A DNA stretch of 64,000 nt from an uncultured Parcubacteria group bacterium (GCA_947084965.1 CAMTUG010000001.1:276206-340205); one strand, 5' to 3'. Counted from the first letter of the stretch, positions 3,830 through 54,643 are shown. Program-made: numbers and translations. Notes: generated by a model from the sequence alone, not told the origin.

Positions 3830-3857
3830 CCGCGCTCGTCCAGGACGGAGAGCGCGG
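3830..3857. terminator. Bidirectional hairpin terminator between convergent genes
   Basis: ccgcgctc-gtccaggacgga-gagcgcgg, followed by atttgatt. Confidence 0.6.
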
Positions 3858-3863
3858 ATTTGA

Positions 3864-6424: not shown

Positions 6425-6545
6425 TATGAAAATACGAAATCCGGAAATCGAAATTCGAAACAAATCAGAATCGGAAAGGGAAAATTTCAAACCTTTCACT
6501 TTTTTCTCTTTTCCGATCGTTTCGAATTTCGATATTTGAATTTCG
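6425..6545. repeat. Intergenic inverted-repeat element with TTCGAA(A/T)-type units forming a long hairpin. Related to 908-1018
   Basis: aatcgaaattcgaaac ... gtttcgaatttcgat; tcggaaag ... cttttccga. It shares aatcggaaag and acgaaa units with the ftsW-murG element. Confidence 0.7.
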
Positions 6546-6550
6546 AATAT

Positions 6551-11733: not shown

Positions 11734-11780
11734 TCGGGCTTTCTTTATCGATTGAACGTAAGGGGATTTTCTGCTAAGTT

Positions 11781-13569: not shown

Positions 13570-13572
13570 TCC

Positions 13573-21730: not shown

Positions 21731-22739
21731 GCTTTAAGCGGCGGAACGTTTCGATGGCGAAGTTGAGCCAGTACTTTTTGGTGAGCGGCAGGTCTTGGGC
21801 GTGAACGTACTCTTCGGGGAATCCACCGAATCCTTTTTTGAAAAGCGACAGTCCGGCCCAGGGGTGTTTGGGTTTGTTGTCCGGGGAGATTCCCCAGAAG
21901 TTATAGAGCGTACAGCCCCGGCGCTTGGCTTCTTGAATCGCTCGCCATTGCAAAAGCGATGAGGCGTTCAAGTGAGGGAAGATCTGAAGTGAACCGCTGT
22001 GGTGATAGTAGGCGGAACCGTTGTAGAAGATAATGATCGAGGCGGCGATGATCGTCCCTTGATAGGTGCCAAAGAAAAAGGCGGCCTGGTTGTCTTTAGC
22101 AAAAAGGTCAAACTCTTGTTTGAGGTAGGACTTGCTGAACGGCGTGTAGTGCTGACGATCCGCTGTCGCTTTGTACACTTTCCAAAAATCTTCCATCGCT
22201 TCCGGGTCGGTGCGCATGGTGATTTCGATCCTGTCCTTTTCTGACTTTTTGATCAGGTAGCGTGTTGTTTTGCGCATCTCTTTCAATAGCGTTTCCTCAT
22301 CTTTGGTGATGTCGAGGAGCCAGGAGAGTTCTGGATGCATGTGAATCGGTGCAGGGCGGAATCCTAGTGATGCGTAGAGACTTTTTTCCGTCACGGGTTG
22401 TAGTGGACAGATGCGAATGAAATCGCAGCGCTCGCGTTGTCCGATGTTAAGGAGTTCCTCGACGAGCACCTTGAGAATCCCAGCTGCGTCTGCATCTCTG
22501 GCGACCGTCGGACCGTGTGGACAGAGCAAAAAGGCTCCACGACGGGCGTTAATCTTAATGAGCAGAGCTACAGCCATCAATTGCTCCGCGCGATACACAC
22601 CCAGGCGGAAGATCTTTGATCCTGAGTGCTCGTACTGCAACCCCCATTTCCAGGAATGCAAAAACGTATGCGGACGCTGTTCTTGCATGAACGCTTCCCA
22701 ACGTTGTTCATCCTTTATTTCTGCAACGGAATAGTTCAT
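21720..22739 (-). CDS. FemAB-family aminoacyl-tRNA-dependent peptidyltransferase (FemX/MurM-like)
   Basis: 339 aa with FemAB-like motifs (HSWKWG, LLQWRAIQEAKRRG). Confidence 0.65.
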   Translation of the reverse strand: MNYSVAEIKDEQRWEAFMQEQRPHTFLHSWKWGLQYEHSGSKIFRLGVYRAEQLMAVALLIKINARRGAFLLCPHGPTVARDADAAGILKVLVEELLNIGQRERCDFIRICPLQPVTEKSLYASLGFRPAPIHMHPELSWLLDITKDEETLLKEMRKTTRYLIKKSEKDRIEITMRTDPEAMEDFWKVYKATADRQHYTPFSKSYLKQEFDLFAKDNQAAFFFGTYQGTIIAASIIIFYNGSAYYHHSGSLQIFPHLNASSLLQWRAIQEAKRRGCTLYNFWGISPDNKPKHPWAGLSLFKKGFGGFPEEYVHAQDLPLTKKYWLNFAIETFRRLKRGL

Positions 22740-23935
22740 ACCTCGTGTTGAGTGGCAAACCAGGCGTTCACTTCGCGTACAATGCGCTCGGCGTCGGCCT
22801 TGGAGATCGAACGGTGCGTCGGTAAGTTGAGAATCTGCTCAGAAACGAACTCCGACTGCGGGCACGTCCCGGTATAATCGGTCAGGTACATGTATTTTTT
22901 AGGTGCGATTGGAGCATCGTACCAAATGTCGCTGATGTAGATACGGCGCTTGCGCAGATAGGTGATCAGACCTTCTCGCTGTTTTACGAGAATCGGGAAG
23001 CGCAGATAGATCGCATCGTTATGATTCGCGGCTAACATTAAAAGATCTTTGCTAAGACCTGATTGATATATTTCGGTAATCATCTTGCGATGCGTAATCA
23101 TCTTCGGAAGAACGGTGTATTCATGCATCGCTTGCACGGTGTACCAACTCGGAAGTTCGTGCGCTTCGACCGTCATGCCAGGAGGAAGAGGTTTGGAAAG
23201 CAGATGCAAGGATCGGCAGACTTTGTGAAGTAGTTTCCCAATACCTAGCGCATGAGTGAGCCGAATTTTATAGGTGAGGGTCGGATAAAAACGATCGCGC
23301 AGTTGCTGTGAGCGAGAGATCTGTTTTGCTGGAGCGTGCGTTTTGTCGCTGTACTGCTTCGAACGGGTGATCAGCGCGCCGCCGGAAACGGCATCAATCA
23401 CTTTGTCTTGGCTAAACGAAAGGATCGTGAAGTCGCCGATCGTTCCGGCTTCTTCACCAGATGTGTATTGAACGCCGATCGAATGAGCCAAGTCCTCGAT
23501 CAACACCAACTGTTTTGATCGACAGAACTCGGCGATCTCTCGCGCTTCACACGGCTCGCCAAGCGTATTTTGAATGATGACAACGGTGATATCTGGGTTT
23601 GCTTCCACGGCGGTTTTCAACGCATCAAGGGAGAAGTTCAGCGAACCTGGTTCAATATCGAGGAGCTCGGCACGATATCCGCTGTTCACAATGGCCTGAT
23701 AGACGGCATAACAGGTGAAGCCGTTGATGATGACCGTACTTCCAGGCTTAGTGATTTTATTCAGAGCGAGGGCGATCGCTTCGCGGCCTTTGTAGGTGAG
23801 GGTCACTTCGCCGCCATAGCGTGACGATAAGAAATCAATAAAGCGCTGGCGTCTGGCCGGTGTGCCAACAGCCAGAAACGTTCGCCAAGCGTCGAAGAAT
23901 CCGTAGTTTGATCCGAGAGAGTTGAAGATGCTCAT
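22736..23935 (-). CDS. DegT/DnrJ/EryC1/StrS-family PLP-dependent aminotransferase (nucleotide-sugar aminotransferase-like)
   Basis: ILSFSQDKVIDAVSGGALITRS (PLP-lysine context), DLAHSIG, overall DegT-like. Confidence 0.7.
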   Translation of the reverse strand: MSIFNSLGSNYGFFDAWRTFLAVGTPARRQRFIDFLSSRYGGEVTLTYKGREAIALALNKITKPGSTVIINGFTCYAVYQAIVNSGYRAELLDIEPGSLNFSLDALKTAVEANPDITVVIIQNTLGEPCEAREIAEFCRSKQLVLIEDLAHSIGVQYTSGEEAGTIGDFTILSFSQDKVIDAVSGGALITRSKQYSDKTHAPAKQISRSQQLRDRFYPTLTYKIRLTHALGIGKLLHKVCRSLHLLSKPLPPGMTVEAHELPSWYTVQAMHEYTVLPKMITHRKMITEIYQSGLSKDLLMLAANHNDAIYLRFPILVKQREGLITYLRKRRIYISDIWYDAPIAPKKYMYLTDYTGTCPQSEFVSEQILNLPTHRSISKADAERIVREVNAWFATQHEV

Positions 23936-23936
23936 A

Positions 23937-24623
23937 CTAGGCGAGCTCCTGAATGATCTGTTCAGCGACAACTTCCGGATGCGTAACGTGTGGGGAGTGT
24001 CGCGCATTTGGAATCACAAAAAGCTTTGAATTCTCAATCGATCGGTGCATCAACTCACCGTCACTAAGCGGGGTGCTGCCGTCGTTCGCGCCCCAAATGA
24101 GGAGTGTTGGTGCTTTGATGCTTGATAAAACGGAACGCAGATCAACGCCGATCAGGTTAGCCATCGTTTTGCGCATGGCGGGACTTGCCTTCTCATAATC
24201 GCGTTCGCGGGCGGCACGATAGAGAAGTTTGCGTAGGCGATCGGATGAACTGAAGAGCTTTCCGACTTTGGCGAGGAGCCAAAAGACGCTGCGCTTGATG
24301 CGAATTTTTAAACCGTTCGGATAGATCCCGGCGCTGTCGATCAAAATCAATCGCTCAACTTTTTCTGGATATCGTGAAGCAAAAGCGATCGAGATGCGCC
24401 CGCCGTTTGAGTGGCCGACTAAGATGACCTTCTCTTCGTCTTTGAGTTCTGACTTCAACCAATCAACGTAATCATCGAGCGTCCAGGTGCGATCGGTGCC
24501 GTCGGTTAAGCCCGGAACGGGCAACAATTGCGAATCAATCCCGCTTTGCTTAAGCAGGGCGATGAGCGGATTCCAGGTGTCGGTGGTGTACGTCCAACCG
24601 TGGAGGATGTAAATCTTTTTCAT
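23937..24623 (-). CDS. Alpha/beta-fold hydrolase
   Basis: HGW...VGHSNGG nucleophile elbow, with Asp and His in the C-terminal part. Confidence 0.65.
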   Translation of the reverse strand: MKKIYILHGWTYTTDTWNPLIALLKQSGIDSQLLPVPGLTDGTDRTWTLDDYVDWLKSELKDEEKVILVGHSNGGRISIAFASRYPEKVERLILIDSAGIYPNGLKIRIKRSVFWLLAKVGKLFSSSDRLRKLLYRAARERDYEKASPAMRKTMANLIGVDLRSVLSSIKAPTLLIWGANDGSTPLSDGELMHRSIENSKLFVIPNARHSPHVTHPEVVAEQIIQELA

Positions 24624-25894
24624 AATGACCACTGCTTACGGCGAATCTGCCAGATCTGTTCGCGGCGGCAGAGCTTGTTTACATCGTCAGGGGAGGCAAG
24701 GAGATGTTCGATGACCCCTTCGAGGAATCGCGCGCCCTTAAATAGCAAAACCTCATCGCCTTTGATCGCAGACGAAAGATAATCAAGTGCGTCCTTCGGT
24801 TGGATGAATGATTCAATGTGCACTCCACGTTCTTCAAGTTCAGCTAACTTTGGCAGAGTGTACTTGGTGAGGCGTGGACCGACAAGAATGATCTGTTCGA
24901 AGTCGCTATCCACCAGGAGTTCAGCGAGGCCTTCGTGCTCGGTTTGCTCCTGTTCACCTTGCTCGATCAGATCACCAAGGATCGCCCACTTTTTTTCTGC
25001 TCGAAGTTGATTGACCATCGATACAATGACAGAGACAGAAGCGAGGTTGGCGTTATAGCTGCTGTCGATGATCGTTGTGTTTTTGATTCCAGCAAACAAC
25101 GAGCTCCGTCCTGGGGGCATGACAAGGCGTGAGAAGTGTTCGTCCGTTTGCTGTCCAAAGTATTCACAAATAACAGGCGTGGCAGCGATCGCATAGAACG
25201 TTTCTTTTGGAAGAAGATAGGGGAGATGATACGCGCGCCCACTGATCACAAATCCTGTCCCGGTCGTGGCAACGGAATATTCTTCGAGGTGGTCATCCTC
25301 GCGCACTTCGCGCCATTCGGCGGTCGTGCGTTTTTTCTGATCAACGATTAGTTTGTTGTCACCGTTCGTGATAACGAGTTTTGATGCCTGTTCGACGAAA
25401 TACCCAAACTCGTAGGCGATCGCCTCGTCTACGTTAGTAAACTTTCCTGTGCGCAGTAATTTTTCAAACTGCTGGCTGTGCGTTCGAGCACAGCTGAGCC
25501 AGATAACAATTTCTGGCTTGAGTAAAGCACTCAGGAAGCGACCTTCTCCTGGACGTTCCGCATCGGCTTCGACAACATAGATTTTCTCTGTCGGCGGTTT
25601 TTTCCAGGCCCGAATCGGAGCGAGAAGAAAAAGACCGATCCACTCAACGGGAGAAAACGTCGTACGTTTCAACCCGAGAATATCAAACGGAATTCCGTAA
25701 GTGCTGTTAGCGTGATGAGAATACTTGGCCGCTGTCTGCAGCTGCGATTCGAGCAGATGGAGGGCGGTCGTCTTTCCGTTTGATCCGGTAACAACAACAA
25801 TGCGCGGCTTCCAGAGGTGCAATTGAATCAACGCGCAATACTTAAAATAATGCGCGATAAAAAAATACAGTTTGTGCTTGATTTTCCTGAACAT
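24620..25894 (-). CDS. murF: Mur-ligase-family protein, MurF-like (lacks N-terminal domain; hydrophobic N-terminus)
   Basis: VVTGSNGKTT P-loop. C-terminal IIDSSYNANLASV...ILGDLIEQGEQE...LLFKGARF resembles MurF DDSYNAN...GDMAELG. Confidence 0.55.
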   Translation of the reverse strand: MFRKIKHKLYFFIAHYFKYCALIQLHLWKPRIVVVTGSNGKTTALHLLESQLQTAAKYSHHANSTYGIPFDILGLKRTTFSPVEWIGLFLLAPIRAWKKPPTEKIYVVEADAERPGEGRFLSALLKPEIVIWLSCARTHSQQFEKLLRTGKFTNVDEAIAYEFGYFVEQASKLVITNGDNKLIVDQKKRTTAEWREVREDDHLEEYSVATTGTGFVISGRAYHLPYLLPKETFYAIAATPVICEYFGQQTDEHFSRLVMPPGRSSLFAGIKNTTIIDSSYNANLASVSVIVSMVNQLRAEKKWAILGDLIEQGEQEQTEHEGLAELLVDSDFEQIILVGPRLTKYTLPKLAELEERGVHIESFIQPKDALDYLSSAIKGDEVLLFKGARFLEGVIEHLLASPDDVNKLCRREQIWQIRRKQWSL

Positions 25895-25967
25895 TTCGGC
25901 TGGTTATAGCCCCCCCGTGAACACCCTAAACCTTTCAGAGAATAACAGAATTCGAGCATTTTGACCA

Positions 25968-26025
25968 CAAAAATCAGAAGCCGCCCTCGGGAGAGTGTGT
26001 CGCGAAGGCGACTTCCGAGAGCGGC
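25968..26025 (-). terminator. Rho-independent terminator of the GC-rich Zn-ribbon cassette gene
   Basis: On the minus strand, gccgctctcgg...ccgagggcggc followed by ttctgatttttg. Confidence 0.55.
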
Positions 26026-26035
26026 GTGAGCCGGG

Positions 26036-26329
26036 TCAGTGGTAGAGGATGGTCGGATCGTCCGAACCGTCCGTGCCGGTGGTGGCGACCCTCCAGGCTC
26101 GGAGGATGCGTTGTAGTACCTCGTCTGGTTCGGCGGCCTTCGGCGTGACCGGAGGGTTCGAGGGCGTCATCGCGGCGTATCGATGACCGCAGTCCTCGCA
26201 GACGTACTCCGTCGTTGGGCGATCCGCCCCGAAGTTCACGATCTCCACGAGCTGGGTGTTCCGTCGCGGGCACCAGTCGCAGTCGCCGGTACACAGAGGG
26301 TTGCTCTGAAGCAGGCGGGTCTTAGACAT
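26036..26329 (-). CDS. Small Cys-rich zinc-ribbon protein, extreme GC3, inserted inside the operon
   Basis: GGAG SD 5 nt upstream. CTGDCDWC...CEDCGHRY forms two CxxC pairs. Almost all third positions are G/C. A putative TTGACG-17-TATTCC promoter lies in the 3' end of the RimK gene. Confidence 0.65.
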   Translation of the reverse strand: MSKTRLLQSNPLCTGDCDWCPRRNTQLVEIVNFGADRPTTEYVCEDCGHRYAAMTPSNPPVTPKAAEPDEVLQRILRAWRVATTGTDGSDDPTILYH

Positions 26330-26355
26330 GAGGTCTCCTGGTTGAACTAGGAATA

Positions 26356-27252
26356 TCAGTTTCGATTGAGGCCGTCAACTGTTTTGACAGCAAAGTCAAC
26401 GATCGCGCCAGCGACATCGACGCCCGATGCGCGTTCTAATTCTTCAAATCCTGGATTGGCGTTGACTTCGATCACCAGCGGTCCTCGTTTTGAGCGAAGG
26501 ATATCGACGCCGGCGATTTCAAGGCTGAACGCTTTTGCCGCCTCGATCGCCATGCGCATCTCTTCTTCTGTCAGTTCAACCGCTGTGCCAACTCCACCAA
26601 GCGACGCGTTGGCACGAACGTCACCGATGATTGCGGTGCGTTCCATCGCTGCAATCACTTGGTCACCAACAACAAAGGCGCGCAGATCTTTGCGACCCGC
26701 TTCGGCGATAAACTCCTCAACGATGATCGGGTTTTTGTCACGAATATGTAAATATTCAACGATCGGGGAGAGCGTTTCCACGTTCTCGGCGTAAAAAATC
26801 CCTTTGCCGTGGGTACCGAAGGCAACTTTTAAAATGATCGGATAGCCGATTTTGGCCGCCTCCGCTCGGGCATGATCCGAGGTGCGGCAGATCGCCCAGC
26901 GCGGCATGGCCACGCCAGCACGCGAGAGAATGAAATGTTGCGCCAGCTTATTTTTGGCGATCCCTCCGAGCGGGGAGTGGTTGATCACGCGAAAACCAAG
27001 AGCAACGAGCGCGTCCGTCGTAACGGCGTGCAAGCTCGGCTCTTCGACGAACCCTGGTCGGTTAATAATCACATCGAGCTTCGGTAACTCAGCTCCCATG
27101 TGCGTGACGATGCCTCCGGCGATGACGATCTCCGGCTCATGGAGCATCGTCACCTCGTGTCCCATCGCTCGTGCGGCCTGAATCAACCGCGGTGCGAGCG
27201 CTGGGTCGTCGATCTGTTTTGGGCGGCCGCTGGTTAAGATTCCAATGTGCAT
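26356..27252 (-). CDS. RimK-family ATP-grasp ligase (alpha-L-glutamate ligase-like)
   Basis: ATP-grasp motifs (GYPIILKVAFGTHGKGIFY, EEFI...GRKDLRAFVVGDQVIAAMER, GVDILRSKRGPLVIEVNANPGF). Confidence 0.75.
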   Translation of the reverse strand: MHIGILTSGRPKQIDDPALAPRLIQAARAMGHEVTMLHEPEIVIAGGIVTHMGAELPKLDVIINRPGFVEEPSLHAVTTDALVALGFRVINHSPLGGIAKNKLAQHFILSRAGVAMPRWAICRTSDHARAEAAKIGYPIILKVAFGTHGKGIFYAENVETLSPIVEYLHIRDKNPIIVEEFIAEAGRKDLRAFVVGDQVIAAMERTAIIGDVRANASLGGVGTAVELTEEEMRMAIEAAKAFSLEIAGVDILRSKRGPLVIEVNANPGFEELERASGVDVAGAIVDFAVKTVDGLNRN

Positions 27253-27257
27253 AATGT

Positions 27258-27379
27258 GGATCTTTAGAAAACTGCGTCTTTTCGTTTCACGGGTCCCGTC
27301 GACCCACTCAACGTAGAATCCCTACGTCTCGCGGGCTCGACACCCGTTCAACGAAAATACATCAGTTTTCTAAAGATCC
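27258..27379. repeat. 122-nt imperfect palindromic long-hairpin element, family copy E2
   Basis: Perfect 17-bp terminal inverted repeats ggatctttagaaaactg / cagttttctaaagatcc. Apical hairpin acgtag-aatcc-ctacgt. Inner motif ccgtcgacccactcaacgta is similar to E1 ccccgacgactcctcaacgta. Confidence 0.7.
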
Positions 27380-44872: not shown

Positions 44873-45910
44873 ATGAAATCGTTTACTACTTCGCACGGGA
44901 CAATTCAGTTTCCAGAGTTCATGCCGATCGCCACCAAAGGCGCGGTCAAAACGCTGGATGTGGGGGATCTGCGACACTTAGGTGCGCAGATCATTTTGTC
45001 GAATACGTATCATTTGCTGTTGCGTCCTGGGCTTGAAGGGATGAAGAAACTTGGCGGTCTGCATCGTTTTATGGGTTGGGATGGGCCGATCTTAACGGAT
45101 AGCGGTGGATACCAAGTATTTTCTCTGCCCAACAAAACGACCGAAGAAGGGGTGGAGTTTAAATCCCCGATCGACGGAGCCAAGATTTTTTTGACTCCGG
45201 AATTGTCGATGGAGATGCAGACCGCGATCGGTTCAGACATTGTGATGCAGTTTGATGACGTTGCGGCAGGAGATTCTGATCGTGTGCGCTACGAAGAAGC
45301 GATGCAGCGATCACTGCGATGGGCCAAGCGATGCAGAGAATCGTACAACGGTCCTGGAAAACTGTTTGGGATTGTTCAAGGGGGGACGCATGAAGATTTG
45401 CGCGAGAGATCAGCGACAGAGTTGATGAAGATCGGCTTTGATGGCTACGCCATCGGCGGTCTTTCCGTAGGGGAAAAACGCGAGGATGCATTTCGTATTG
45501 CCAAGCACGTGGCGGCGATGCTTCCGGCGGACAAGCCGCGGTATTTTATGGGCGGCGGGTTTCCGGAGGAGATCGTCTATTATGTTTCTGTTGGCATCGA
45601 CATGTTTGATTGTGTTCTCCCGACGCGTAATGCACGGCACGGAACGTTATTTGTGTGGAAAGGGGAGCCAGGAGAGTGTGTGCGAAAGGCGTATGATTTG
45701 GCGTTGTCGGGGGGACCAGATAAAGAAATAGCGGCCGTTTTGTACGAACAGTTGCATGTGACGAACGAAAAGTTCGCGTTCGATGAACAATGGGGCTACT
45801 TGCGGCATCTGTTTATGGTCGGGGAGCCGCTGGCGATGCGATTGGCCACTCTCCACAACCTGAAGTTTTATTTGCAGCTGATGGAAGAGTTGAGAGGTAT
45901 CAAAAAATAA
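44873..45910 (+). CDS. tgt: Queuine tRNA-ribosyltransferase (tRNA-guanine transglycosylase)
   Basis: ILTDSGGYQVFSL catalytic-Asp motif, TIM-barrel TGT pattern. Confidence 0.8.
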   Translation: MKSFTTSHGTIQFPEFMPIATKGAVKTLDVGDLRHLGAQIILSNTYHLLLRPGLEGMKKLGGLHRFMGWDGPILTDSGGYQVFSLPNKTTEEGVEFKSPIDGAKIFLTPELSMEMQTAIGSDIVMQFDDVAAGDSDRVRYEEAMQRSLRWAKRCRESYNGPGKLFGIVQGGTHEDLRERSATELMKIGFDGYAIGGLSVGEKREDAFRIAKHVAAMLPADKPRYFMGGGFPEEIVYYVSVGIDMFDCVLPTRNARHGTLFVWKGEPGECVRKAYDLALSGGPDKEIAAVLYEQLHVTNEKFAFDEQWGYLRHLFMVGEPLAMRLATLHNLKFYLQLMEELRGIKK

Positions 45911-45955: not shown

Positions 45956-46624
45956 TTATTTTGCTACAGCCACCTCGGATTCGCGTTCAGAGTATTGGCG
46001 ATCACTAAGCCGTTTGAGTTCAAGGAGAAGGCGAGCGATTTTGGTCGCCTCTGGGACGAGCGCTTCTTCGAGTCCTTGAATCGATTTGGTGATGCGGGTA
46101 ACGGCGGCAGGGTCGTCTGACTTTTCTTTTAGGAGTTCACGCTTCATCTCTATTGCAGAAAGGATTGGGAAGTATCCGTTCAATTTCTGGGCGAGATAAT
46201 TTGTGATCGTTGGGAGATTGGCAGAGGTGCTGACATCGGCCAGTGAGGAATTGCGATAAAGTTCCTCGATCGATTTCGGATACGGAAGCGGATGACCGTG
46301 TTCGTCGTCGCGTTTAAAAAGCTCGAGATCTCGGGTGAAAAGTTGATCGATCTGTTCTTGGTCCATCAGTTCTGTTGAACGGAGGATTTCCTGAAAGAGC
46401 GGCTGGGCGAGGAGCGTTTCGAGGTTTGCTTGGAGCTGACGGGTGGTGAATTCTGTCCCTTCTTTTGCTCGCTCTATCTCCCAAACATGGTTAAGGGCCG
46501 GCAGGTGTGCATAATCAACCGGCGGCGCATTGGGTGCCTCTGGTGCTGTAAACATCTGTTCTGAAAAACCTTCTTCTCCGGACATAGTGTGGTGATTATC
46601 GCACAGGGATGGTAAAATAGGCAA
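45956..46624 (-). CDS. Hypothetical protein
   Basis: ORF with backbone codon usage; no recognisable motif. Confidence 0.4.
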   Translation of the reverse strand: MPILPSLCDNHHTMSGEEGFSEQMFTAPEAPNAPPVDYAHLPALNHVWEIERAKEGTEFTTRQLQANLETLLAQPLFQEILRSTELMDQEQIDQLFTRDLELFKRDDEHGHPLPYPKSIEELYRNSSLADVSTSANLPTITNYLAQKLNGYFPILSAIEMKRELLKEKSDDPAAVTRITKSIQGLEEALVPEATKIARLLLELKRLSDRQYSERESEVAVAK

Positions 46625-46627: not shown

Positions 46628-47005
46628 ATGGCACAGAACGCGGTTGCCCTTAGTGCGAAGTATTTTGTGGTCGATCTCATCGGTGGGATCGTCCTTTTTC
46701 CGGTCTGGTGGTACACGCGCGGATTGGTGAAAATGGGGAGCGGTGTGTTGGACTTTTGGACAGCGGAGCGCAGTTCGCTAGCGATCGGTGTTTGGATCAA
46801 GAACATCTTCACCCCCATGTACGGTACGCACGATATCGCTGGGCGATTGATCAGCTTTTTCATGCGCATCGTGCAGATCATCGGTCGAACGATTGTGCTC
46901 CTGATTTGGACCGTGCTCTTGCTCCTCTTTTTTGTGGCCTATCTCGTTTTTCCTGCCTTTGTCGCTCTGGAAGTAGTCTATCACCTTGTTGGATCGCTTT
47001 TATGA
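46628..47005 (+). CDS. Small membrane protein (3-4 TM), translationally coupled (ATGA) to the ClpB-like gene
   Basis: Hydrophobic; stop overlaps ATG 47002. Confidence 0.5.
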   Translation: MAQNAVALSAKYFVVDLIGGIVLFPVWWYTRGLVKMGSGVLDFWTAERSSLAIGVWIKNIFTPMYGTHDIAGRLISFFMRIVQIIGRTIVLLIWTVLLLLFFVAYLVFPAFVALEVVYHLVGSLL

Positions 47006-49593
47006 AGGGACTTGTTGTAAACAGTAAGCCGTTCGCCTTCACGGAACGCGTCGATGAAGTATCTATCATGTTGAAGCACGCACGTGATGGGGTGCAGAAA
47101 CTGATCGATCTCGTTGTGTTAGCTGGTGTCGTGCTCCTTCTGGCAATTTTTGCTCTCGGTACATTCGTGCTTAGCGATCCGGCAGAGATGATTGAACTTC
47201 TCTTTTGGACGACCCCAAGCGCTTATCTGTTCTGCTTCTGGTCTGCCATCTTTTTGATTCTGTTCTTCATCTATCGTCGGCTTGAGGCACGCCGCGAACA
47301 CGCCGTTCTGCCGACGCTCGAGCCTGACGCCGCTGCAGCGCTCGCACCAACCGATCTTTCTCACGGCCACAATATTCGCCAGTTCATGGATGACGAGGCG
47401 GTCAAATCCGTTGAACAAGGATTTGAAACGGCGCATAAGTTCAAACATGGAAGCGTTGATGCCCTTCACCTGTTTATCGGATCGCTGACCACACGTGAGG
47501 CATCCATCGTCTTTGCGCGCCTCGGATTATCATTCGATACGATGCGTGATGCGGTTGTGCGTCGACTTGCTTCCTTGCCCGCGGCGGGTGGAACGACTCT
47601 CGGTGACAACGCGCAGAAGATTTTGGCGCAGGCCATGAAGTCCGCTATCGTCCATCGACGCCGTCACATTACCCCGGTTGAGCTGATGATCGCTGCGTAT
47701 GACGCAGACGAATTTTTACAGGAGTTATTGTACAGTAAAAAAATTGAACGCCAGGATTTCGAAAACGTCTTGCAGTGGATTCGCATCAACGACGAACAGC
47801 GCCGCCGGATCAAAGAGTTTTCTCGGGCCGCGTCCCTCAAGCCAAAGGGGCCGGTCAACCGTGCCTACACGTCGGTGGCGACACCGTTTCTTGATTCTGT
47901 TTCGGACGACCTGACGCGTGCCGCGGCTTGGGGGCAGTTGCCAATGCTGGTTGGACGCGCTCAGGAATTGACCTCTGTGTTTCGGGCGATCGAAGGGGGG
48001 AATCAGAGCGTTGTTTTGGTTGGGCTACCAGGAGTGGGAAAGGACGCGTTGATTTCGGGGATCGCCGAAGCGATGGTTGAAGAGCGCGTGCCAGAGATTT
48101 TACAAGACAAGCGCTTAGTGAAAATTTCTCTGCCACACATTATTGCCGGATCAAGCGGTACGCAGGCTGAGGCTAAGCTTCTGCAAGCTCTGCGCGAAAT
48201 TGCGATTTCTGGAAACATCGTTACGGTCATCACCGACATCGACCAGATGATCGGGCAGGGGCTCGATCTTTCGGCAATTTTGTCGCAAGAGCTGGATCGT
48301 CGCTACACGTTTGTGATCGCTACCACAACGCCGGAAGGGTATGCCAGCAAGGTGGAGCGCTCGGTGCTCGGACAGAAGCTGATTAAAATTGACGTTCAAG
48401 AGCCGAAGCAAAACGAAGCCATTCATATCCTTGAAGCCAAGATCGGATCGATTGAATATAAGCACAACGTCGTCTTTACGTATGAAGCGGTCAGCCGTGT
48501 CGTTTCCTTAACCGATCGCTACATGCACGATCGTCAGTTGCCAGAAAAGGCGATCGAAGTGGCTCAAGAAGTTGCCCTCGAGGTGCATAAAAAGAAGGGC
48601 GACGGAGCGCGGGTGGTTGGGGAAGATGTTGCCGCGATCATCAGCGAAAAAACGCGTGTGCCGGTGACCGAAGTCGCCAGCGAGGAAAAAGAGAAGTTGC
48701 TGCACTTGGAAGAGCGGATGCACGGCCGTGTCGTTGGTCAAGACGAGGCGGTCAAAGCGATTGCGGCGGCGTTGCGTCGCGCCCGTGCGGACTTGCGTTC
48801 CCAAGATCGTCCGATCGCCAACTTTTTGTTTCTTGGGCCAACCGGGGTCGGAAAAACGGAGCTGGCCAAAACGGTCAGTGAAGTGTACTTCGGCAGCGAA
48901 GGGGCGATGCTTCGCTTTGATATGTCGGAATATCAGGAGCAGGGGAGCATTAATCGTCTGATCGGTGCGGCCGGGCAAGGGGGGTTGATTACTGAAGCGG
49001 TGCGTAAAGCTCCGTTCTCTTTATTGCTCCTCGATGAACTTGAGAAGGCGCATCCAGATATTTTGAACCTCTTCCTGCAAGTGATGGATGACGGCCGTTT
49101 GACCGACGGCGCGGGTCGCACGATCGACTTTACCAACGTTATTTTGATCGCCACGTCAAACGCCGGGGCGCAGTATCTGCAGCAGGCGGTCCGTCAGAAC
49201 ATTCCAATGGAGCAGATCAAGGAGAACCTGATCGAAAACGAACTCAAGGGCATTTATCGTCCAGAGTTTTTGAACCGCTTCGATGGAATTATCGTTTTCA
49301 AGCCGCTTGGGATGGAAGAGGTTGTGCAGATCGCTTATCTCATGATTTCTAAAGTTACGGAACGATTGAAGGCGAAGGGGATTACGTTCCGCGCCAGCGA
49401 CGAAGCGGTGTACGAATTGGCGCAAAAAGGATTTGATCCAAAGTTTGGTGCGCGTCCGTTGCGCCGAGTGATTCAGGAAGAGGTCGACAACGCCGTGGCG
49501 ACCGTCCTTTTGAAAGGGGAAGTGGGACGTCGCGATACGCTGGTGCTTGAAGCAGGGGGCAAGATTCACGTCGAAAAGGCGGCCGAGCTGTAG
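47002..49593 (+). CDS. Membrane-anchored ClpB/ClpC-type AAA+ protein with Clp_N domain, degenerate D1 (GVGKD, no Walker-B Glu) and canonical D2
   Basis: Two N-terminal TM helices. Clp_N repeat (HLFIGSLTTREASIVFARLG). D1 GLPGVGKDALISGIAE / TVITDIDQ. D2 GPTGVGKTELAKTV / LLLLDELEKAHPD. The ORF-track N-extension from 46708 was rejected. Confidence 0.75.
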   Translation: MKGLVVNSKPFAFTERVDEVSIMLKHARDGVQKLIDLVVLAGVVLLLAIFALGTFVLSDPAEMIELLFWTTPSAYLFCFWSAIFLILFFIYRRLEARREHAVLPTLEPDAAAALAPTDLSHGHNIRQFMDDEAVKSVEQGFETAHKFKHGSVDALHLFIGSLTTREASIVFARLGLSFDTMRDAVVRRLASLPAAGGTTLGDNAQKILAQAMKSAIVHRRRHITPVELMIAAYDADEFLQELLYSKKIERQDFENVLQWIRINDEQRRRIKEFSRAASLKPKGPVNRAYTSVATPFLDSVSDDLTRAAAWGQLPMLVGRAQELTSVFRAIEGGNQSVVLVGLPGVGKDALISGIAEAMVEERVPEILQDKRLVKISLPHIIAGSSGTQAEAKLLQALREIAISGNIVTVITDIDQMIGQGLDLSAILSQELDRRYTFVIATTTPEGYASKVERSVLGQKLIKIDVQEPKQNEAIHILEAKIGSIEYKHNVVFTYEAVSRVVSLTDRYMHDRQLPEKAIEVAQEVALEVHKKKGDGARVVGEDVAAIISEKTRVPVTEVASEEKEKLLHLEERMHGRVVGQDEAVKAIAAALRRARADLRSQDRPIANFLFLGPTGVGKTELAKTVSEVYFGSEGAMLRFDMSEYQEQGSINRLIGAAGQGGLITEAVRKAPFSLLLLDELEKAHPDILNLFLQVMDDGRLTDGAGRTIDFTNVILIATSNAGAQYLQQAVRQNIPMEQIKENLIENELKGIYRPEFLNRFDGIIVFKPLGMEEVVQIAYLMISKVTERLKAKGITFRASDEAVYELAQKGFDPKFGARPLRRVIQEEVDNAVATVLLKGEVGRRDTLVLEAGGKIHVEKAAEL

Positions 49594-49594: not shown

Positions 49595-50650
49595 ATGCAA
49601 TTCTTCTGGTTTCTTTGGGCGGGTCTCGGGTTTCTCGTTGCCTTCCTAGCGATCCCGTTGATCGCTAGGTTTGCCGAACGCGCCGGAGTGGTAGCTCGGC
49701 CTTCTGGACACCCCAAAGAGGTGCACAAAAGCCCCGTTCCATTGCTTGGTGGGCTCGCAGTTTTTTTAGGTGTCGGTGTGCCCCTCCTGTTGATCTTAGC
49801 GACGAGTGACGCTCTGACCGACGGATTGATCCATGCCAGTCACTATCTTGGGTTTCTTCTTGGCGGTGCGGTTCTCATGATCGGTGGATTTTTAGACGAC
49901 AAATACAACCTCCCTCCCAAGGTCACGATTCTTTTTCCCATGATCGCCGCGGCCACGGCCGTCCTTTTCGGGATCGGGGTTGATCGACTGACAAATCCCT
50001 TTGGTGAAACGCCGTTTTTTCTCGCAGACTGGCAATCTTCTTTGCTGACGTTTGTCTGGTTGATGGTCGTCATGTACACCACAAAGTTTCTTGATGGTCT
50101 CGACGGCTTAGCAAGTGGCGTCAGTGGGATCGGTGCGTTTATGATGTTCTTGCTGGCTGTCACGGTGACGTATTTTCAACCGGACGTGGCATTATTCTCG
50201 TTGATTGCGGTCGGGGCGCTGGCAGCATTTTTTGTCTGGAACTTTCATCCGGCCGTTATTTTTCTTGGTGAAGGCGGGAGTACGTATGTCGGATTTTTAC
50301 TCGGCGTGCTTTCGGTCATCGGTGGAGCCAAACTCGGTACACTCCTTCTCGTTCTGGCTATTCCGTTCCTTGATGTGTTGTGGGTCGTGTTGCGCCGTGT
50401 GTTCGTTGAGCATAAATCACCGACGTCCGGTGACCGCAAGCATCTTCATCATCGTCTGCTTGATCTTGGATTGTCTCAGCGTCAAGTGGTCGTCCTCTAC
50501 GTCGGTGTCGCTGCCGCGTCCGGTATGTCGACCCTTCTGCTTCAAAGTCGCGACAAGATTATTACCTTTGGCGTCATCGCTACGCTGATGATCATCGCCG
50601 CGACCTATATTGTTATCACCAGTCGCAAGCGCCTTGAGCACAACGTATGA
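49595..50650 (+). CDS. Polyprenyl-phosphate HexNAc-1-phosphate transferase family (MraY/WecA-like)
   Basis: 10-11 TM, DDKYNLPP and FLDGLDGLASG motifs; MraY versus WecA not resolved. Confidence 0.65.
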   Translation: MQFFWFLWAGLGFLVAFLAIPLIARFAERAGVVARPSGHPKEVHKSPVPLLGGLAVFLGVGVPLLLILATSDALTDGLIHASHYLGFLLGGAVLMIGGFLDDKYNLPPKVTILFPMIAAATAVLFGIGVDRLTNPFGETPFFLADWQSSLLTFVWLMVVMYTTKFLDGLDGLASGVSGIGAFMMFLLAVTVTYFQPDVALFSLIAVGALAAFFVWNFHPAVIFLGEGGSTYVGFLLGVLSVIGGAKLGTLLLVLAIPFLDVLWVVLRRVFVEHKSPTSGDRKHLHHRLLDLGLSQRQVVVLYVGVAAASGMSTLLLQSRDKIITFGVIATLMIIAATYIVITSRKRLEHNV

Positions 50651-51114
50651 TCAAACGCTCTTGGCGATTGTTGATTCTTCTCGCTGCTATCGTGATCATC
50701 GCGATCATGGTGATGAGGATGTCGTCGCCGTCGATCGGTGTGCCCGATGACGGATCTGTTGCATTCGAAGGTGGACCGATCGTTCCGGTGGAGATCTCGG
50801 ATTCACAAGACGAACAGGTTCGTGGACTCTCGGGGCGCGATGGGCTCGCTCCAGGATCAGGAATGCTCTTTGTCTACGATGATCAAAAGGTCCGGACATA
50901 TTGGATGAAAGAGATGCGTTTCTCGATCGATATTATTTGGATTGCGGACGGACAGGTGATCGGGTTTGTCGAGCGCGCTGTGCCGCCGATCGGTCCGGGC
51001 GACCCGCTTGATCTGTACCGGTCCCCAGAACCCGCTGATCGTGTTCTTGAAGTTGAGGCGGGTTTTATCGAAGAACACGGGGTCTTCATCGGGCAGACGG
51101 TGGTAACCAATTGA
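50647..51114 (+). CDS. DUF192-domain protein
   Basis: GLSGRDGLAPGSGMLFVY...SIDIIWIADGQVIG pattern. Confidence 0.55.
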   Translation: MIKRSWRLLILLAAIVIIAIMVMRMSSPSIGVPDDGSVAFEGGPIVPVEISDSQDEQVRGLSGRDGLAPGSGMLFVYDDQKVRTYWMKEMRFSIDIIWIADGQVIGFVERAVPPIGPGDPLDLYRSPEPADRVLEVEAGFIEEHGVFIGQTVVTN

Positions 51115-53179: not shown

Positions 53180-54643
53180 TTAGAATGGGTGAGCTGGCGG
53201 GGCCGGTGGCGGTGGGGGCGGCGGTGGCAATGCACGTCCGCCGTTCGGCCCGATCCCCGCAGGGATCGCGGCACCTGGTGGCGGAGGGGTATTGCTTCGG
53301 CGTTCGAGATTTTTAAAGCTGGCGCGGGTAGAGTCAAAAAAGACGTTGACCACCCCGGTCGGGCCGTTACGATGTTTGCTGATATGGATTTCAGCCAAAT
53401 TTTTCTCTTCTGGGGCCAAATCTTCGAGCCGGAAGTTCTTATCCGCCGCTTTGCGGTAGATAAATAATACCACATCGGCGTCCTGTTCAATGGAACCGGA
53501 TTCACGCAAGTGAGCGAGTTTTGGAATGGCCGGTTTTACCAGTTCCACGGCACGGTTCAGCTGGGAGAGGCAGAGCACAGGGATGTTCAACTCACGAGCA
53601 AGTTGTTTGAGCGAACGGCTGATTTCAGAAACTTCTTGCACGCGGTTGTCACCCCCGTTGTACTTATGCGATTCCATCAGCTGTAAGTAGTCGATGATGA
53701 TCAATCCCAAGCCGTGTTCTGCCTGCAAACGTCGGGCTTTGGTGCGAATTTCAAGCGCCGTACAGCCGGCGGAGTCGTCGATGAAGATCGGTGCTTCGGA
53801 CAAAACCCCGAGCGCCTGGCCGATCCGCGGAAAATCATCATCGCGTTCGGAAAGTTTACCGGTGCGCAATCGCCACAAGTCGATTCCGGCTTCGGCACAG
53901 ATCATACGATCCACCAGCTGTTCTTTGGACATTTCCAGTGAAAAGATCCCCACCGCCTTTTTTGTTTTAACCGCGGCGTTGCGGGCAATGTCCAAAGCCA
54001 GCGACGTCTTTCCAACCGAAGGACGGGCAGCGAGAATAATCAGGTCCGAGTTTTGCAGACCGGCCAAAATATTGTCGAGTTCGGTGAATCCCGTTGTCAG
54101 GCCACGTAACTTGCCGCGTTCTTTGTGCAGTTCGTCGATGCGTTCGAAAGCGTCAGAAAGGACAGAGCGAATGGGGGAGAAGGACTGCTTCAAAAAGTTA
54201 CTGGAGACGTTGAAAAGTTTTTGTTCCGCCCCGTCAAGCAGAACGTCAGTGTCTTTTTCTTCATCATAGCCCATTTCGGTGATCTCGCTTGCGGTACGAA
54301 TCAACCGCCGCAGTGTCGCCTTCTTCTGAATAATTTTGGCGTAGTGGGCGCAGTTGCCAGACGTAGCCACGGCGTTCGCGAGCTCAGCGAGAAAAGACCG
54401 TCCGCCAATCTGGGTTAGCATCCCGCGTTCGTCCAAGCGGTTTCCCACAGATAGCAGATCGATCGGCTCGTGCCGTTCGAACAATTCAATAATCGTCTCA
54501 AAAACCATCCGGTGGGCGTCTTTATAAAAATCGTCCGCCCGCACCAGGTCGGCCACTTTAATGATCGCATCCGGATCGATCAAAATCGACCCGATCAGTG
54601 AGATCTCAGCTTCCAGGTTTTGTGGGGGGATGCGGTCTGCCAT
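53180..54643 (-). CDS. dnaB: Replicative DNA helicase DnaB with a Pro-rich C-terminal extension
   Basis: N-terminal IPPQNLEAEISLIGSIL, Walker A ARPSVGKTS, and an RecA-like core. The last ~45 aa are PPPPGAAIPAGIGPNGGRALPPPPPPPPAPPAHPF. Confidence 0.85.
   Translation of the reverse strand: MADRIPPQNLEAEISLIGSILIDPDAIIKVADLVRADDFYKDAHRMVFETIIELFERHEPIDLLSVGNRLDERGMLTQIGGRSFLAELANAVATSGNCAHYAKIIQKKATLRRLIRTASEITEMGYDEEKDTDVLLDGAEQKLFNVSSNFLKQSFSPIRSVLSDAFERIDELHKERGKLRGLTTGFTELDNILAGLQNSDLIILAARPSVGKTSLALDIARNAAVKTKKAVGIFSLEMSKEQLVDRMICAEAGIDLWRLRTGKLSERDDDFPRIGQALGVLSEAPIFIDDSAGCTALEIRTKARRLQAEHGLGLIIIDYLQLMESHKYNGGDNRVQEVSEISRSLKQLARELNIPVLCLSQLNRAVELVKPAIPKLAHLRESGSIEQDADVVLFIYRKAADKNFRLEDLAPEEKNLAEIHISKHRNGPTGVVNVFFDSTRASFKNLERRSNTPPPPGAAIPAGIGPNGGRALPPPPPPPPAPPAHPF

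What the first reader, a model, noticed from the sequence alone, without database searches (positions are those of the whole stretch)
46628..49593. Membrane-anchored ClpB/ClpC-like AAA+ protein with inactivated first ATPase domain, coupled to a small membrane protein
The 863-aa protein starts with two TM helices and is then Clp_N-like. Its D1 Walker A is GVGKD (Thr replaced by Asp) and its Walker B lacks the catalytic Glu (TDIDQ). D2 is canonical.

It is translationally coupled (ATGA) to an upstream 125-aa polytopic membrane protein. It is followed by the MraY/WecA-family transferase and a DUF192 gene. A membrane-tethered unfoldase with one active ring suggests a dedicated envelope-associated disaggregase or secretion ATPase, and not a housekeeping ClpB.
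Basis: partly seen in the sequence, partly recalled or inferred. Interest (0 to 1): 0.55.

Follow-up and report, generated by a model that had tools for sequence, protein, structure and literature searches.

The report
Membrane-anchored pore-loop-less Clp ATPase operon
A four-gene operon conserved in hundreds of Patescibacteria (CPR) species encodes a membrane-anchored relative of the ClpB/ClpC protein-unfolding machines whose first ATPase ring is dead and whose substrate-gripping loops are gone from both rings, so it probably does something other than unfold proteins, most likely in cell-envelope assembly.

Summary
Window 47002-49593 encodes an 863-aa class-I Hsp100/Clp protein. Its order is TM hairpin, Clp_N, degenerate D1, canonical D2.

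D1 has lost the Walker-A Thr (GVGKD) and the Walker-B Asp-Glu (VTVITD). It has also lost both Arg fingers and the pore-loop Tyr. D2 keeps every catalytic residue, but its GYVG pore loop is deleted. There is no M-domain and no ClpP-binding loop. These features hold across 74 species-level relatives.

The gene overlaps (ATGA) a 125-aa membrane-protein gene with no Pfam family. A WecA-like GT4 transferase gene follows after 1 nt, then a DUF192 gene (ATGA).

- The small gene was found in 386 species genomes. The AAA+ gene lies directly downstream in almost all loci that could be scored.
- GT4 follows in 61 of 69 loci. One MAG carries an in-frame AAA+::GT4 fusion.
- Relatives also carry a separate canonical ClpB with a CIRCE operator.

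It is therefore not ClpB, ClpC, ClpA or ClpV. It is an undescribed Hsp100 subfamily. It most likely acts as a D2-driven, non-threading membrane remodeller tied to envelope glycan synthesis. That mechanism is inferred, not shown. No literature on the family was found.

The parts
46628..47005 (+). Gene for a 125-aa small membrane protein, the conserved partner, with no Pfam or NCBIfam family. Conserved motifs are FPVWWYTxG and VWIKNIFxPMYGQxDxxGRLISFFMR. The conserved, positively charged part (residues 30-87) is predicted to be cytoplasmic.
   Evidence: ORF and ATGA overlap. No family hits. 100 homologues. 591 clusters at 50% identity. Alignment invariants W27 W28 G32 W56 N59 P63 M64 S76 R80. 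AF2 pLDDT 90.5. Charge distribution.
47002..49593 (+). Gene for the 863-aa membrane-anchored class-I Hsp100/Clp paralogue.
   Evidence: Pfam AAA_2, ClpB_D2-small and AAA_lid_9. Full-length alignment to ClpA, ClpC and ClpB. More than 120 full-length homologues at 51-70% identity. AF2 pLDDT 84.7. Foldseek top hits are ClpC, ClpB and ClpC1.
47101..47277 (+). N-terminal TM hairpin (TM1 about residues 34-57, short acidic outer loop with near-invariant W69, TM2 about residues 74-92). Predicted topology is N-in, C-in.
47392..47736 (+). Clp_N-like N-domain (residues about 131-245).
   Evidence: Pfam Clp_N passes its gathering score in relatives.
47884..48606 (+). Degenerate D1 AAA+ module (residues about 295-535). 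Walker A is GLPGVGKD (341-348, nt 48022-48045). Walker B is VTVITD (407-412, nt 48220-48237). The pore loop AGSSGTQAEAK (382-392, nt 48145-48177) has no Tyr. The Arg fingers ERRFQ are replaced by GQKLI.
48682..49305 (+). Catalytically intact D2 AAA+ module (residues about 561-768). Walker A is GPTGVGKT (nt 48835-48858). Walker B is LLLLDE (nt 49021-49038). Sensor-1 is N720 and the Arg finger is R759. The pore-1 loop is truncated to GAAGQGG (655-661, nt 48964-48984), against GSPPGYVGYDEGG in ClpC. There is no IGF/VGF ClpP loop.
49306..49590 (+). D2-small (C-terminal) domain with sensor-2 GARPLRR.
   Evidence: Pfam ClpB_D2-small, E 1.1e-22..
49595..50650 (+). Gene for a WecA-like polyprenyl-phosphate sugar-1-phosphate transferase (GT4 / MraY-WecA superfamily). 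Its ATG lies 1 nt after the AAA+ stop codon.
   Evidence: Pfam PF00953. NCBIfam WecA 105.8 bits against MraY 42.2 bits, both below cut-off. Junction sequence. Downstream of the AAA+ gene in 61 of 69 loci.
50647..51114 (+). DUF192 gene with an N-terminal hydrophobic anchor or signal. It overlaps the GT4 stop as ATGA and is the last gene of the tightly packed block.
   Evidence: Pfam PF02643. Junction. Present in 23 of 80 loci and in 3 of 3 reverse look-ups.

Best explanation
This is a member of an undescribed, Patescibacteria-restricted subfamily of class-I Hsp100/Clp ATPases. It works as part of a membrane complex, not as a soluble disaggregase or a ClpP partner.

Shown:
- The protein is anchored by an N-terminal TM hairpin, with the whole Clp_N-D1-D2 body in the cytoplasm.
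- D1 is a pseudo-ATPase. The P-loop Lys is kept, but the Walker-A Thr, the Walker-B acidic pair, both Arg fingers and the pore Tyr are lost.
- D2 retains every catalytic residue under strong constraint.
- Both aromatic pore-1 loops, the M-domain and the ClpP loop are absent.
- It is encoded in a tightly packed, widely conserved operon: small membrane protein, AAA+, WecA-like GT4, then often DUF192.

Inferred:
- The protein forms a ring whose N-domain/D1 face sits against the membrane.
- D1 serves as a structural or nucleotide-sensing scaffold.
- D2 hydrolyses ATP.
- Because nothing remains to grip a polypeptide in the channel, the energy is not used for processive threading. It drives rigid-body movements passed through D1, Clp_N and the TM hairpin to the small partner protein.
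- The result is to assemble, gate or regulate an envelope-biogenesis complex centred on the co-encoded WecA-like glycan-initiating transferase.

Functionally it would resemble Torsin or an NSF-type remodeller more than ClpB.
For: - Architecture and motifs.
- Family-wide D1 degeneracy in 74 species-level sequences. The Walker-A Lys is kept in 72 of 74. The next residue varies (D, N, S, K, T, Q, R). The Walker-B Glu position is N in 55 of 74 and D in 15 of 74. D1 pore-loop aromatics occur in 0 of 74. The D2 loop is 6-9 residues shorter than canonical.
- Constraint. The D2 large domain has 67% mean pairwise identity. D1 has 48%, Clp_N 29% and the TM hairpin 24%. D2 is the conserved engine, and D1 is still under selection rather than decaying.
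- Partner. A relative of the small protein was found in 386 species genomes. The AAA+ gene is directly downstream, usually at -26 to +25 nt, in essentially every locus with enough sequence. The reverse look-up from three AAA+ homologues finds the small gene in 3 of 3.
- GT4 linkage. GT4 is downstream in 61 of 69 loci and within 150 nt in 34. One MAG (L016) has an in-frame AAA+::GT4 fusion. It drops TM1 of GT4, so the cytoplasmic C-terminus of the AAA+ joins cytoplasmic loop 1 of GT4.
- Not the stress chaperone. Related genomes carry a separate canonical ClpB (M-domain, GKT, DE, aromatic pore loops) with a CIRCE operator. The window has no CIRCE.
- Precedent. Torsins are Clp/Hsp100 relatives that lack aromatic pore loops, are membrane-associated and depend on membrane cofactors (PMC5425593).
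Against: - No experiment exists, and no multimer model could be run. Ring formation, orientation and contact with the small protein or GT4 are all inferred.
- Loss of the D1 Arg fingers could impair hexamerisation. These are reported as essential for ClpB/Hsp104 oligomerisation (PMC4239642 abstract).
- The AAA+::GT4 fusion is a single MAG and is not in the protein collection.
- If that fusion is real, tethering both ends of the protein to the membrane is hard to reconcile with a ring whose axis is perpendicular to the membrane.
- Gene order in CPR genomes is unusually conserved even for unrelated genes (TGT, L21, RecR and DnaB also travel with the module). Neighbourhood is therefore weaker evidence than in other phyla.
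- 22 of 74 relatives have a DnaJ-type CxxCxGxG zinc ribbon before TM1. That hints at binding of unfolded protein and favours the rival below.
Confidence: 0.5

Rival explanations
1. It is still a true unfoldase or extractase. On this view it is a membrane-protein quality-control or extraction motor, like FtsH without the protease or like Msp1. It would pull substrates from the bilayer through its channel using non-canonical pore residues, powered by D2 alone.
For: - The N-terminal anchoring puts the channel entrance (N-domain/D1 face) next to the membrane, as in FtsH. This is an inference.
- Clp_N is retained.
- 22 of 74 relatives add a DnaJ-type zinc ribbon, weakly matching Pfam DnaJ_CXXCXGXG.
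- D2 and its C-terminal domain are intact.
- In some relatives a Leu, or a Tyr just before the LTE helix, remains near the shortened D2 loop.
Against: - D1 has no aromatic pore residue in 0 of 74 relatives. The D2 pore-1 loop is shortened by 6-9 residues to a Gly/Asp/Ala-rich turn.
- The AF2 model gives only a 7-residue loop between helices 649-654 and 662-669.
- There is no ClpP-docking loop and no fused protease, so extracted proteins would have no obvious fate.
Confidence: 0.25
2. It is an ordinary housekeeping ClpC/ClpB/ClpA, as public annotations say ('ATP-dependent Clp protease ATP-binding subunit'), that merely has an odd N-terminus.
For: Database names. The overall fold and best PDB hits are ClpC and ClpB.
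Against: - All NCBIfam equivalog scores are far below cut-off: ClpB 512.9 against 1232.1, ClpA 469 against 993, ClpV 395.5 against 885.
- The D1 catalytic residues, both pore Tyr, the M-domain and the ClpP loop are all missing.
- Relatives encode a separate canonical ClpB under CIRCE control.
Confidence: 0.02
3. It is a non-enzymatic scaffold, that is, a pseudo-AAA+ like plant SMAX1/D53 or the Torsin cofactors LAP1/LULL1. It would merely organise membrane proteins.
For: D1 is degenerate and the pore loops are lost.
Against: The D2 Walker A, Walker B, sensor-1, Arg finger and sensor-2 are invariant or nearly invariant across 56-120 homologues. D2 is the most conserved part of the protein. That pattern is expected only if ATP hydrolysis matters.
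Confidence: 0.05
4. It is the energising ATPase of a secretion or defence system, analogous to ClpV (T6SS), EccA (T7SS) or the ClpB-like DolB of the Dodola defence system.
For: PADLOC gives D2-only matches to DolB (106 bits) and PDC-M37B. The membrane location would suit a secretion system.
Against: - The PADLOC matches cover only the generic D2 domain. The small protein and DUF192 have no PADLOC hits.
- The operon sits in a fixed housekeeping neighbourhood (mraZ-rsmH-ftsL ... L21, recR, dnaB) across hundreds of species. It is not in variable islands, and no secretion-system genes are adjacent.
Confidence: 0.05

Closest known systems
ClpB / ClpC / ClpA (class-I Hsp100/Clp double-ring unfoldases)
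   Same: Same superfamily and domain order: Clp_N, D1 with AAA_lid_9, D2 (AAA_2) and the D2-small domain. D2 is about 40% identical to ClpB and ClpC. The best sequence and fold matches in the PDB belong to these proteins. Like ClpA, it has no M-domain.
   Different: - It has an N-terminal TM hairpin.
- D1 lacks the Walker-A Thr, the Walker-B Asp-Glu, both Arg fingers and the pore Tyr.
- The D2 GYVG pore loop is deleted.
- It has no M-domain (ClpB and ClpC have one) and no IGF/IGL/VGF ClpP loop (ClpA and ClpC have one).
- It has an obligate small membrane partner and a GT4 operon context.
- All NCBIfam equivalog cut-offs are missed by a factor of about two.
Torsin ATPases with their membrane cofactors LAP1/LULL1 (eukaryotic ER and nuclear envelope)
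   Same: [quoted passage not shown] They lack the aromatic pore loops, are membrane-associated through an N-terminal hydrophobic segment and depend functionally on membrane-protein partners. They are thought not to thread substrates (PMC5425593).
   Different: - Torsins have a single AAA+ module and lack the Arg finger, which the cofactor supplies. Here the D2 Arg finger (R759) is invariant and a second, degenerate ring is present.
- Torsins sit in the lumen, not the cytoplasm.
- The small partner here is not an AAA+-like protein.
- The resemblance is functional. No direct orthology is claimed.
Pex1/Pex6 and NSF (double-ring AAA proteins with one non-hydrolysing ring, recruited to membranes)
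   Same: One ring is catalytically inactive and serves as a scaffold while the other does the work. These proteins act at a membrane through a small membrane-anchored partner (Pex15/Pex26) or adaptors. This rests on my own knowledge. PMC9265785 and the Pex1/Pex6 preprint surfaced but I did not read them in detail.
   Different: They belong to the classical AAA clade, not to Hsp100. The active ring of Pex1/Pex6 keeps its pore loops and threads substrate (abstract). They are recruited to the membrane rather than integrally anchored.
FtsH
   Same: It has two N-terminal TM helices followed by a cytoplasmic AAA+ module that faces the membrane.
   Different: FtsH has a single AAA module with an aromatic pore loop and a fused M41 protease. 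None of these is present here.
SMAX1 / D53 (plant double-Clp-N, ClpB-like repressors)
   Same: They are ClpB-derived proteins with degenerate ATPase features that have been given a non-chaperone role. One appears among the weak PDB hits (9kkx).
   Different: They are soluble nuclear proteins whose D2 is not a conserved active ATPase. Here D2 is fully canonical.

Membership tests
Class-I Hsp100/Clp superfamily | Clp_N, then AAA+ D1 with AAA_lid_9, then AAA_2-type D2, then the ClpB_D2-small domain | tested here: met
   Pfam AAA_2 1.7e-50, ClpB_D2-small 1.1e-22 and AAA_lid_9 3.7e-11. Clp_N is supported by alignment to ClpA and ClpC and by Pfam in relatives. The fold matches ClpC and ClpB.
ClpB (TIGR03346) | Score at or above the NCBIfam equivalog cut-off | tested here: not met
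   512.9 bits against a cut-off of 1232.1.
ClpB | Long coiled-coil M-domain inserted in D1, needed for coupling to DnaK | tested here: not met
   An insertion of about 120 residues is present in the canonical paralogue of L005 and absent here. D1 and D2 align contiguously to ClpA.
ClpB / ClpC / ClpA | Two hydrolysis-competent nucleotide sites (Walker A GKT, Walker B hhhhDE and Arg fingers in both rings) | tested here: not met
   D1 has GVGKD and VTVITD, and ERRFQ is replaced by GQKLI. D2 is canonical.
ClpB / ClpC / ClpA / ClpV | Aromatic pore-1 loops (KYRGEFE in D1, GYVG in D2) for substrate threading | tested here: not met
   D1 has SGTQAE, and 0 of 74 relatives have an aromatic residue there. 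The D2 loop is deleted, leaving GAAGQGG.
ClpC / ClpA / ClpE (ClpP partners) | IGF/IGL/VGF ClpP-docking loop in D2 | tested here: not met
   ClpC 'KYVGFNVQDE' aligns to 'AVRQNIPME'. The region is also 5 and 4 residues shorter than in the canonical paralogue.
ClpA (TIGR02639) | Score at or above the NCBIfam equivalog cut-off | tested here: not met
   469 bits against a cut-off of 993.15.
ClpV / TssH (TIGR03345) | Score at or above the equivalog cut-off, and a T6SS gene context | tested here: not met
   395.5 bits against 884.95. No T6SS genes occur in the conserved operon or its flanks.
FtsH | A single AAA module fused to an M41 zinc protease | tested here: not met
   No Peptidase_M41 hit. The architecture is a double-ring Hsp100.
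Torsin (functional analogue only) | A single Clp-D2-like AAA+ module that lacks the Arg finger, which a cofactor supplies | tested here: not met
   The Arg finger R759 (NRFD) is invariant and two AAA+ modules are present. The shared trait (no aromatic pore loops, membrane association) is met (PMC5425593).
The new subfamily itself (membrane-anchored, pore-loop-less Hsp100 of Patescibacteria) | TM hairpin, Clp_N, degenerate D1 and intact D2 with a truncated pore loop, encoded directly downstream of the WWY/KNIFxPMYG small membrane protein | tested here: met
The new subfamily itself | Hexameric ring and physical complex with the small protein and/or GT4 | not testable with these tools

The most novel reading that the evidence does not exclude
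The small membrane protein, the pore-loop-less Hsp100 ring and the WecA-like transferase may form one ATP-driven membrane machine. ATP hydrolysis in D2 would gate or activate the first, lipid-linked step of a cell-surface glycan pathway, or move its lipid-linked product. That would be the first AAA+-controlled polyprenyl-phosphate glycosyltransferase. It would also be a bacterial counterpart of Torsin-type, non-threading Clp relatives.
Probability: 0.2. Interest if true: 0.8.

Novelty: new variant of a known kind. Interest (0 to 1): 0.6.

Why it matters
Hsp100/Clp proteins are textbook threading machines. This family shows that a bacterial lineage kept the D2 motor under strong selection while removing every element that grips a polypeptide. 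It also inactivated D1, and the protein carries an N-terminal membrane anchor next to a dedicated partner. The family therefore offers a natural test of what an Hsp100 ring can do without threading, a question so far raised mainly by eukaryotic Torsins.

The operon is a core, syntenic feature of a large group of Patescibacteria, whose cell-envelope biology is almost unknown. Its tight link to a WecA-like initiating transferase points to an unrecognised ATP-dependent step in envelope glycan synthesis.

There is also a practical consequence. Hundreds of database entries named 'ATP-dependent Clp protease ATP-binding subunit ClpC' are mis-annotated.

Tried and rejected
- The alternative start (GTG 46708, 961 aa) was rejected. 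It overlaps the small ORF in another frame, and homologues begin at the ATG.
- The third homologue search, using the N-terminal alignment A3 to map the family's outer limits, returned only 2 hits and was uninformative.
- Exact look-ups found nothing. These covered the window's own AAA+ and small proteins and the L016 fusion protein.
- There is no CIRCE element in the window and no paralogous Clp gene in the window.
- PADLOC gave only generic D2 homology to DolB and PDC-M37B, so the defence reading was rejected.
- Seven literature searches on the AAA+ family found no description of it. A further search on DUF192 found nothing useful.
- The consensus promoter scan found no strong sigma-70 site in front of the small gene. 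An extended -10 was seen only by eye.
- MraY identity for the downstream GT4 was rejected in favour of a WecA-like enzyme. Peptidoglycan genes (FtsW, MurG, UppS, Mur ligases) lie elsewhere in the window.
Full report
**What is at the coordinates**

The + strand carries four tightly packed ORFs.
- A 125-aa ORF at 46628-47005.
- An 863-aa ORF at 47002-49593. Its ATG overlaps the stop of the first ORF as ATGA.
- A GT4-family ORF whose ATG (49595) lies 1 nt after the AAA+ stop codon.
- A DUF192 ORF at 50647-51114, which again overlaps as ATGA.

The longer reading of the AAA+ frame, from GTG 46708, is not supported. Homologues start at the ATG.

**Domain anatomy of the 863-aa protein**

Pfam finds AAA_2 (residues 603-761), ClpB_D2-small (769-846) and AAA_lid_9 (470-537). 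It finds only weak P-loop matches in D1.

Against the PDB the best matches are ClpC, ClpB, ClpC1 and ClpA. ClpA residues 5-725 align to 132-841 in one stretch, so an N-domain is present and an M-domain is absent.

An AF2 model built on 56 homologues is confident (pLDDT 84.7). It shows these elements in order:
- a short beta-hairpin (2-12);
- two long helices (19-57 and 74-98);
- a helical Clp_N-like domain (131-245);
- a long linker helix;
- D1 (about 295-532);
- D2 (about 560-860).

Foldseek places the model with ClpC and ClpB.

Hydropathy gives TM segments at about 34-57 and 74-92. Across 34 relatives the flanks are positive (+2.7 and +3.5) and the connecting loop is acidic. This gives N-in/C-in topology with the ATPase body in the cytoplasm.

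**The D1 substitutions are real, and there is more**

Residue-by-residue alignment was made to B. subtilis ClpC and to a canonical ClpB paralogue from a related genome.

| Feature | Canonical | Window protein |
|---|---|---|
| D1 Walker A | GEPGVGKT | GLPGVGKD |
| D1 Walker B | ILFIDE | VTVITD |
| D1 Arg fingers | ALERRFQ | VLGQKLI |
| D1 pore loop | AGTKYRGEFE | AGSSGTQAE |
| D2 pore-1 loop | GSPPGYVGYDEGG | GAAGQGG |
| ClpP-docking segment | KYVGFNVQDE | AVRQNIPME |

The coiled-coil M-domain of about 120 residues is absent.

D2 otherwise keeps GPTGVGKT, LLLLDE, sensor-1 TSN, the NRFD Arg finger and GARPLRR.

**These are family traits, not a one-off**

More than 120 full-length homologues at 51-70% identity exist. 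All are 855-905 aa and all come from Patescibacteria, Uhrbacteria or Parcubacteria. They are annotated only as 'ATP-dependent Clp protease ATP-binding subunit'.

In 74 species-level sequences recovered from genome loci:
- the D1 P-loop Lys is kept in 72 of 74;
- the following residue is free to vary (D, N, S, K, T, Q, R);
- the Walker-B Glu position is Asn in 55 and Asp in 15;
- no sequence has an aromatic residue in the D1 pore loop;
- the D2 loop is always 6-9 residues shorter than canonical.

D2 catalytic residues are invariant. Mean pairwise identity is 67% for the D2 large domain, 48% for D1, 29% for Clp_N and 24% for the TM hairpin. D2 is therefore a conserved engine. D1 is a constrained but non-catalytic module.

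**The partner and the operon**

The 125-aa protein has no Pfam or NCBIfam family. It nevertheless defines a clear family.
- It has 100 hits in the 90% clusters.
- It has 591 clusters at 50% identity, almost all 105-135 aa.
- Its invariant residues are W27, W28, G32, W56, N59, P63, M64, S76 and R80.
- Its AF2 model is confident (pLDDT 90.5) and all-helical.

The conserved, positively charged stretch 30-87 is predicted to be cytoplasmic. It is followed by an uncharged hydrophobic helix from residue 88 onward.

A scan of one genome per species found a relative in 386 genomes. Results for the 80 loci kept:
- The AAA+ gene lies directly downstream on the same strand in essentially every locus with enough sequence, usually at -26 to +25 nt.
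- The exceptions were L020, with no AAA+ gene, and L077, with a 1.8-kb insertion.
- Starting instead from three AAA+ homologues, a Pfam-less gene of 124-127 aa lies immediately upstream in 3 of 3, directly abutting or overlapping the AAA+ start. GT4 and DUF192 follow.
- The GT4 gene is downstream in 61 of 69 loci with room. It is within 150 nt in 34 of them.

NCBIfam scores the GT4 as WecA-like (105.8 bits) rather than MraY (42.2 bits). Peptidoglycan genes (FtsW, MurG, UppS, Mur ligases) lie elsewhere in the window.

One MAG (L016) encodes an in-frame AAA+::GT4 protein of 1234 aa. The GT4 part lacks its first TM helix, so the cytoplasmic C-terminus of the AAA+ continues into cytoplasmic loop 1 of GT4. 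This arrangement is topologically sensible. It is a single case, however, and the sequence is not found elsewhere.

**It is not the stress chaperone**

In about 17 related loci a canonical ClpB-like gene sits divergently upstream. It has an M-domain, GKT, DE and aromatic pore loops. In about a dozen of these loci the spacer carries a perfect or near-perfect CIRCE (TTAGCACTC-N9-GAGTGCTAA), beside the clpB start codon and downstream of a TTGACA-17-TATCAT promoter. The small gene has its own promoter-like site.

The window has no CIRCE and no second Clp gene. All NCBIfam equivalog scores for ClpB, ClpA and ClpV are roughly half their cut-offs.

**How it most likely works**

Shown:
- the protein is membrane-anchored;
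- the AAA+ body is cytoplasmic;
- only D2 is catalytic;
- there are no threading loops, no Hsp70 coupling element and no ClpP coupling element;
- there is an obligate small membrane partner;
- the genetic link to a WecA-like transferase is conserved.

Inferred:
- a ring forms with its N-domain/D1 face toward the bilayer;
- D1 acts as a scaffold or nucleotide sensor;
- the D2 ATPase cycles are transmitted to Clp_N, the TM hairpin and the small partner;
- the outcome is to assemble, gate or regulate an envelope complex around the GT4 enzyme.

Torsins are the nearest functional precedent. They are Clp/Hsp100 relatives without aromatic pore loops, they are membrane-associated and they are controlled by membrane cofactors (PMC5425593). 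I give this explanation about 0.5.

The main rival, at about 0.25, is a non-canonical extractase for membrane proteins. It is supported by the orientation of the protein. It is also supported by a DnaJ-type CxxCxGxG zinc ribbon that 22 of 74 relatives carry before TM1.

Readings as a pure scaffold, a housekeeping Clp, a secretion ATPase or a defence system are unlikely, for the reasons given under the rival explanations.

**Comparison and novelty**

The protein belongs to the class-I Hsp100/Clp superfamily. It fails the defining tests for ClpB, ClpC, ClpA and ClpV. Seven literature searches on the AAA+ family found no description of it. I rate it a new variant of a known kind.

**Caveats**

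- All mechanistic steps are inferred.
- CPR genomes keep long-range synteny even among unrelated genes, so neighbourhood evidence is weaker here than in other phyla.
- Loss of the D1 Arg fingers could affect oligomerisation (PMC4239642 abstract).
- The fusion protein is a single observation.

Noticed in passing
L005 5877-6000; also L033, L036, L045, L026, L073, L080, L079, L082, L067, L085, L038 (spacer between the canonical clpB and the small gene): A perfect or near-perfect CIRCE/HrcA operator (TTAGCACTC-N9-GAGTGCTAA) lies beside the start of a canonical ClpB-like gene that sits divergently upstream of the module. It is downstream of a TTGACA-17-TATCAT promoter on the clpB strand. So the canonical ClpB of these CPR bacteria looks HrcA-regulated, while the membrane paralogue has its own promoter. 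The window has no CIRCE.
   Followed up: partly
L024, L027, L030, L034, L035, L037, L039, L053, L055, L060, L066, L068, L081, L017 (first ~40 codons of the AAA+ gene): 22 of 74 family members carry a CxxC...CxxC zinc ribbon before TM1. In 14 of them it has the strict DnaJ-type form, CxxCxGxG twice. Pfam matches to DnaJ_CXXCXGXG are weak (E 0.0025-0.22 in the six tested). The window protein and its close relatives lack it and keep only the following beta-hairpin.
   Followed up: partly
L016 4231-7935 (CAYXZR010000015.1): This is an in-frame AAA+::GT4 fusion of 1234 aa. The GT4 part has lost its first TM helix, so the fusion is topologically consistent. It is a single MAG and the exact sequence is not in the protein collection. 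It could be real or an assembly artefact.
   Followed up: partly
P0251 (414 aa, metagenomic protein): The small-protein domain (158-257) continues in frame into the N-terminal tail and TM hairpin of the AAA+ protein. The last ~20 residues of the small protein are replaced. This is either a small::AAA+ fusion or a frameshift in the overlap region.
   Followed up: partly
Window 44873-45910 (TGT); L005 9531-11891 and 28 other loci (QueH): A queuosine-pathway gene flanks the module in 62 of 80 loci. TGT lies upstream in 33 loci. QueH lies downstream of GT4 in 29 other loci. The two sets do not overlap. In L005, GT4, QueH, TSP3 repeats and a YkuD L,D-transpeptidase form one 786-aa ORF. I have no explanation; it may reflect ancestral synteny.
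   Followed up: partly
L005 3243-5876 (-): The canonical ClpB-like paralogue combines a long ClpB-type M-domain with an 'SIGFGD' segment at the position of the ClpP-docking IGF loop of ClpA and ClpC. This is an unusual combination.
   Followed up: no
Window 46610-46618: By eye, an extended -10 (TGgTAAAAT) ends 9 nt before the ATG of the small gene, and no Shine-Dalgarno sequence is visible. This suggests a leaderless or near-leaderless transcript. The consensus scan did not call it because the -35 is poor.
   Followed up: no
Window 45956-46624 (-): A 222-aa ORF on the minus strand has no Pfam or NCBIfam hit. It abuts the small-gene start and lies between TGT and the module. Its real start is probably the ATG at about 46585.
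   Followed up: no
Window 53180-54643 (-): The DnaB helicase carries a proline-rich C-terminal tail (…PPPPGAAIPAGIGPNGGRALPPPPPPPPAPPAHPF).
   Followed up: no
L020 2869-3213: This is the only locus with ample downstream sequence (5.3 kb) that has a small-protein match but no AAA+ gene. The match is not listed as an ORF of at least 90 aa, so it may be a pseudogene or a different gene arrangement.
   Followed up: no
Record titles of L007, L010, L016, L018, L022 and many others: Many MAG records that carry this Patescibacteria-type operon are titled 'uncultured Gammaproteobacteria bacterium'. This is evidently a placeholder or a mislabel.
   Followed up: no
Window 1-14000 and 21700-27300: The window also holds a set of cell-wall genes: FtsW (cut), MurG, UppS, GT1, GT2, three Mur ligases, a FemAB-like protein, a DegT aminotransferase and a RimK-like ATP-grasp enzyme. 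The organism therefore makes peptidoglycan and probably a further surface glycan.
   Followed up: partly
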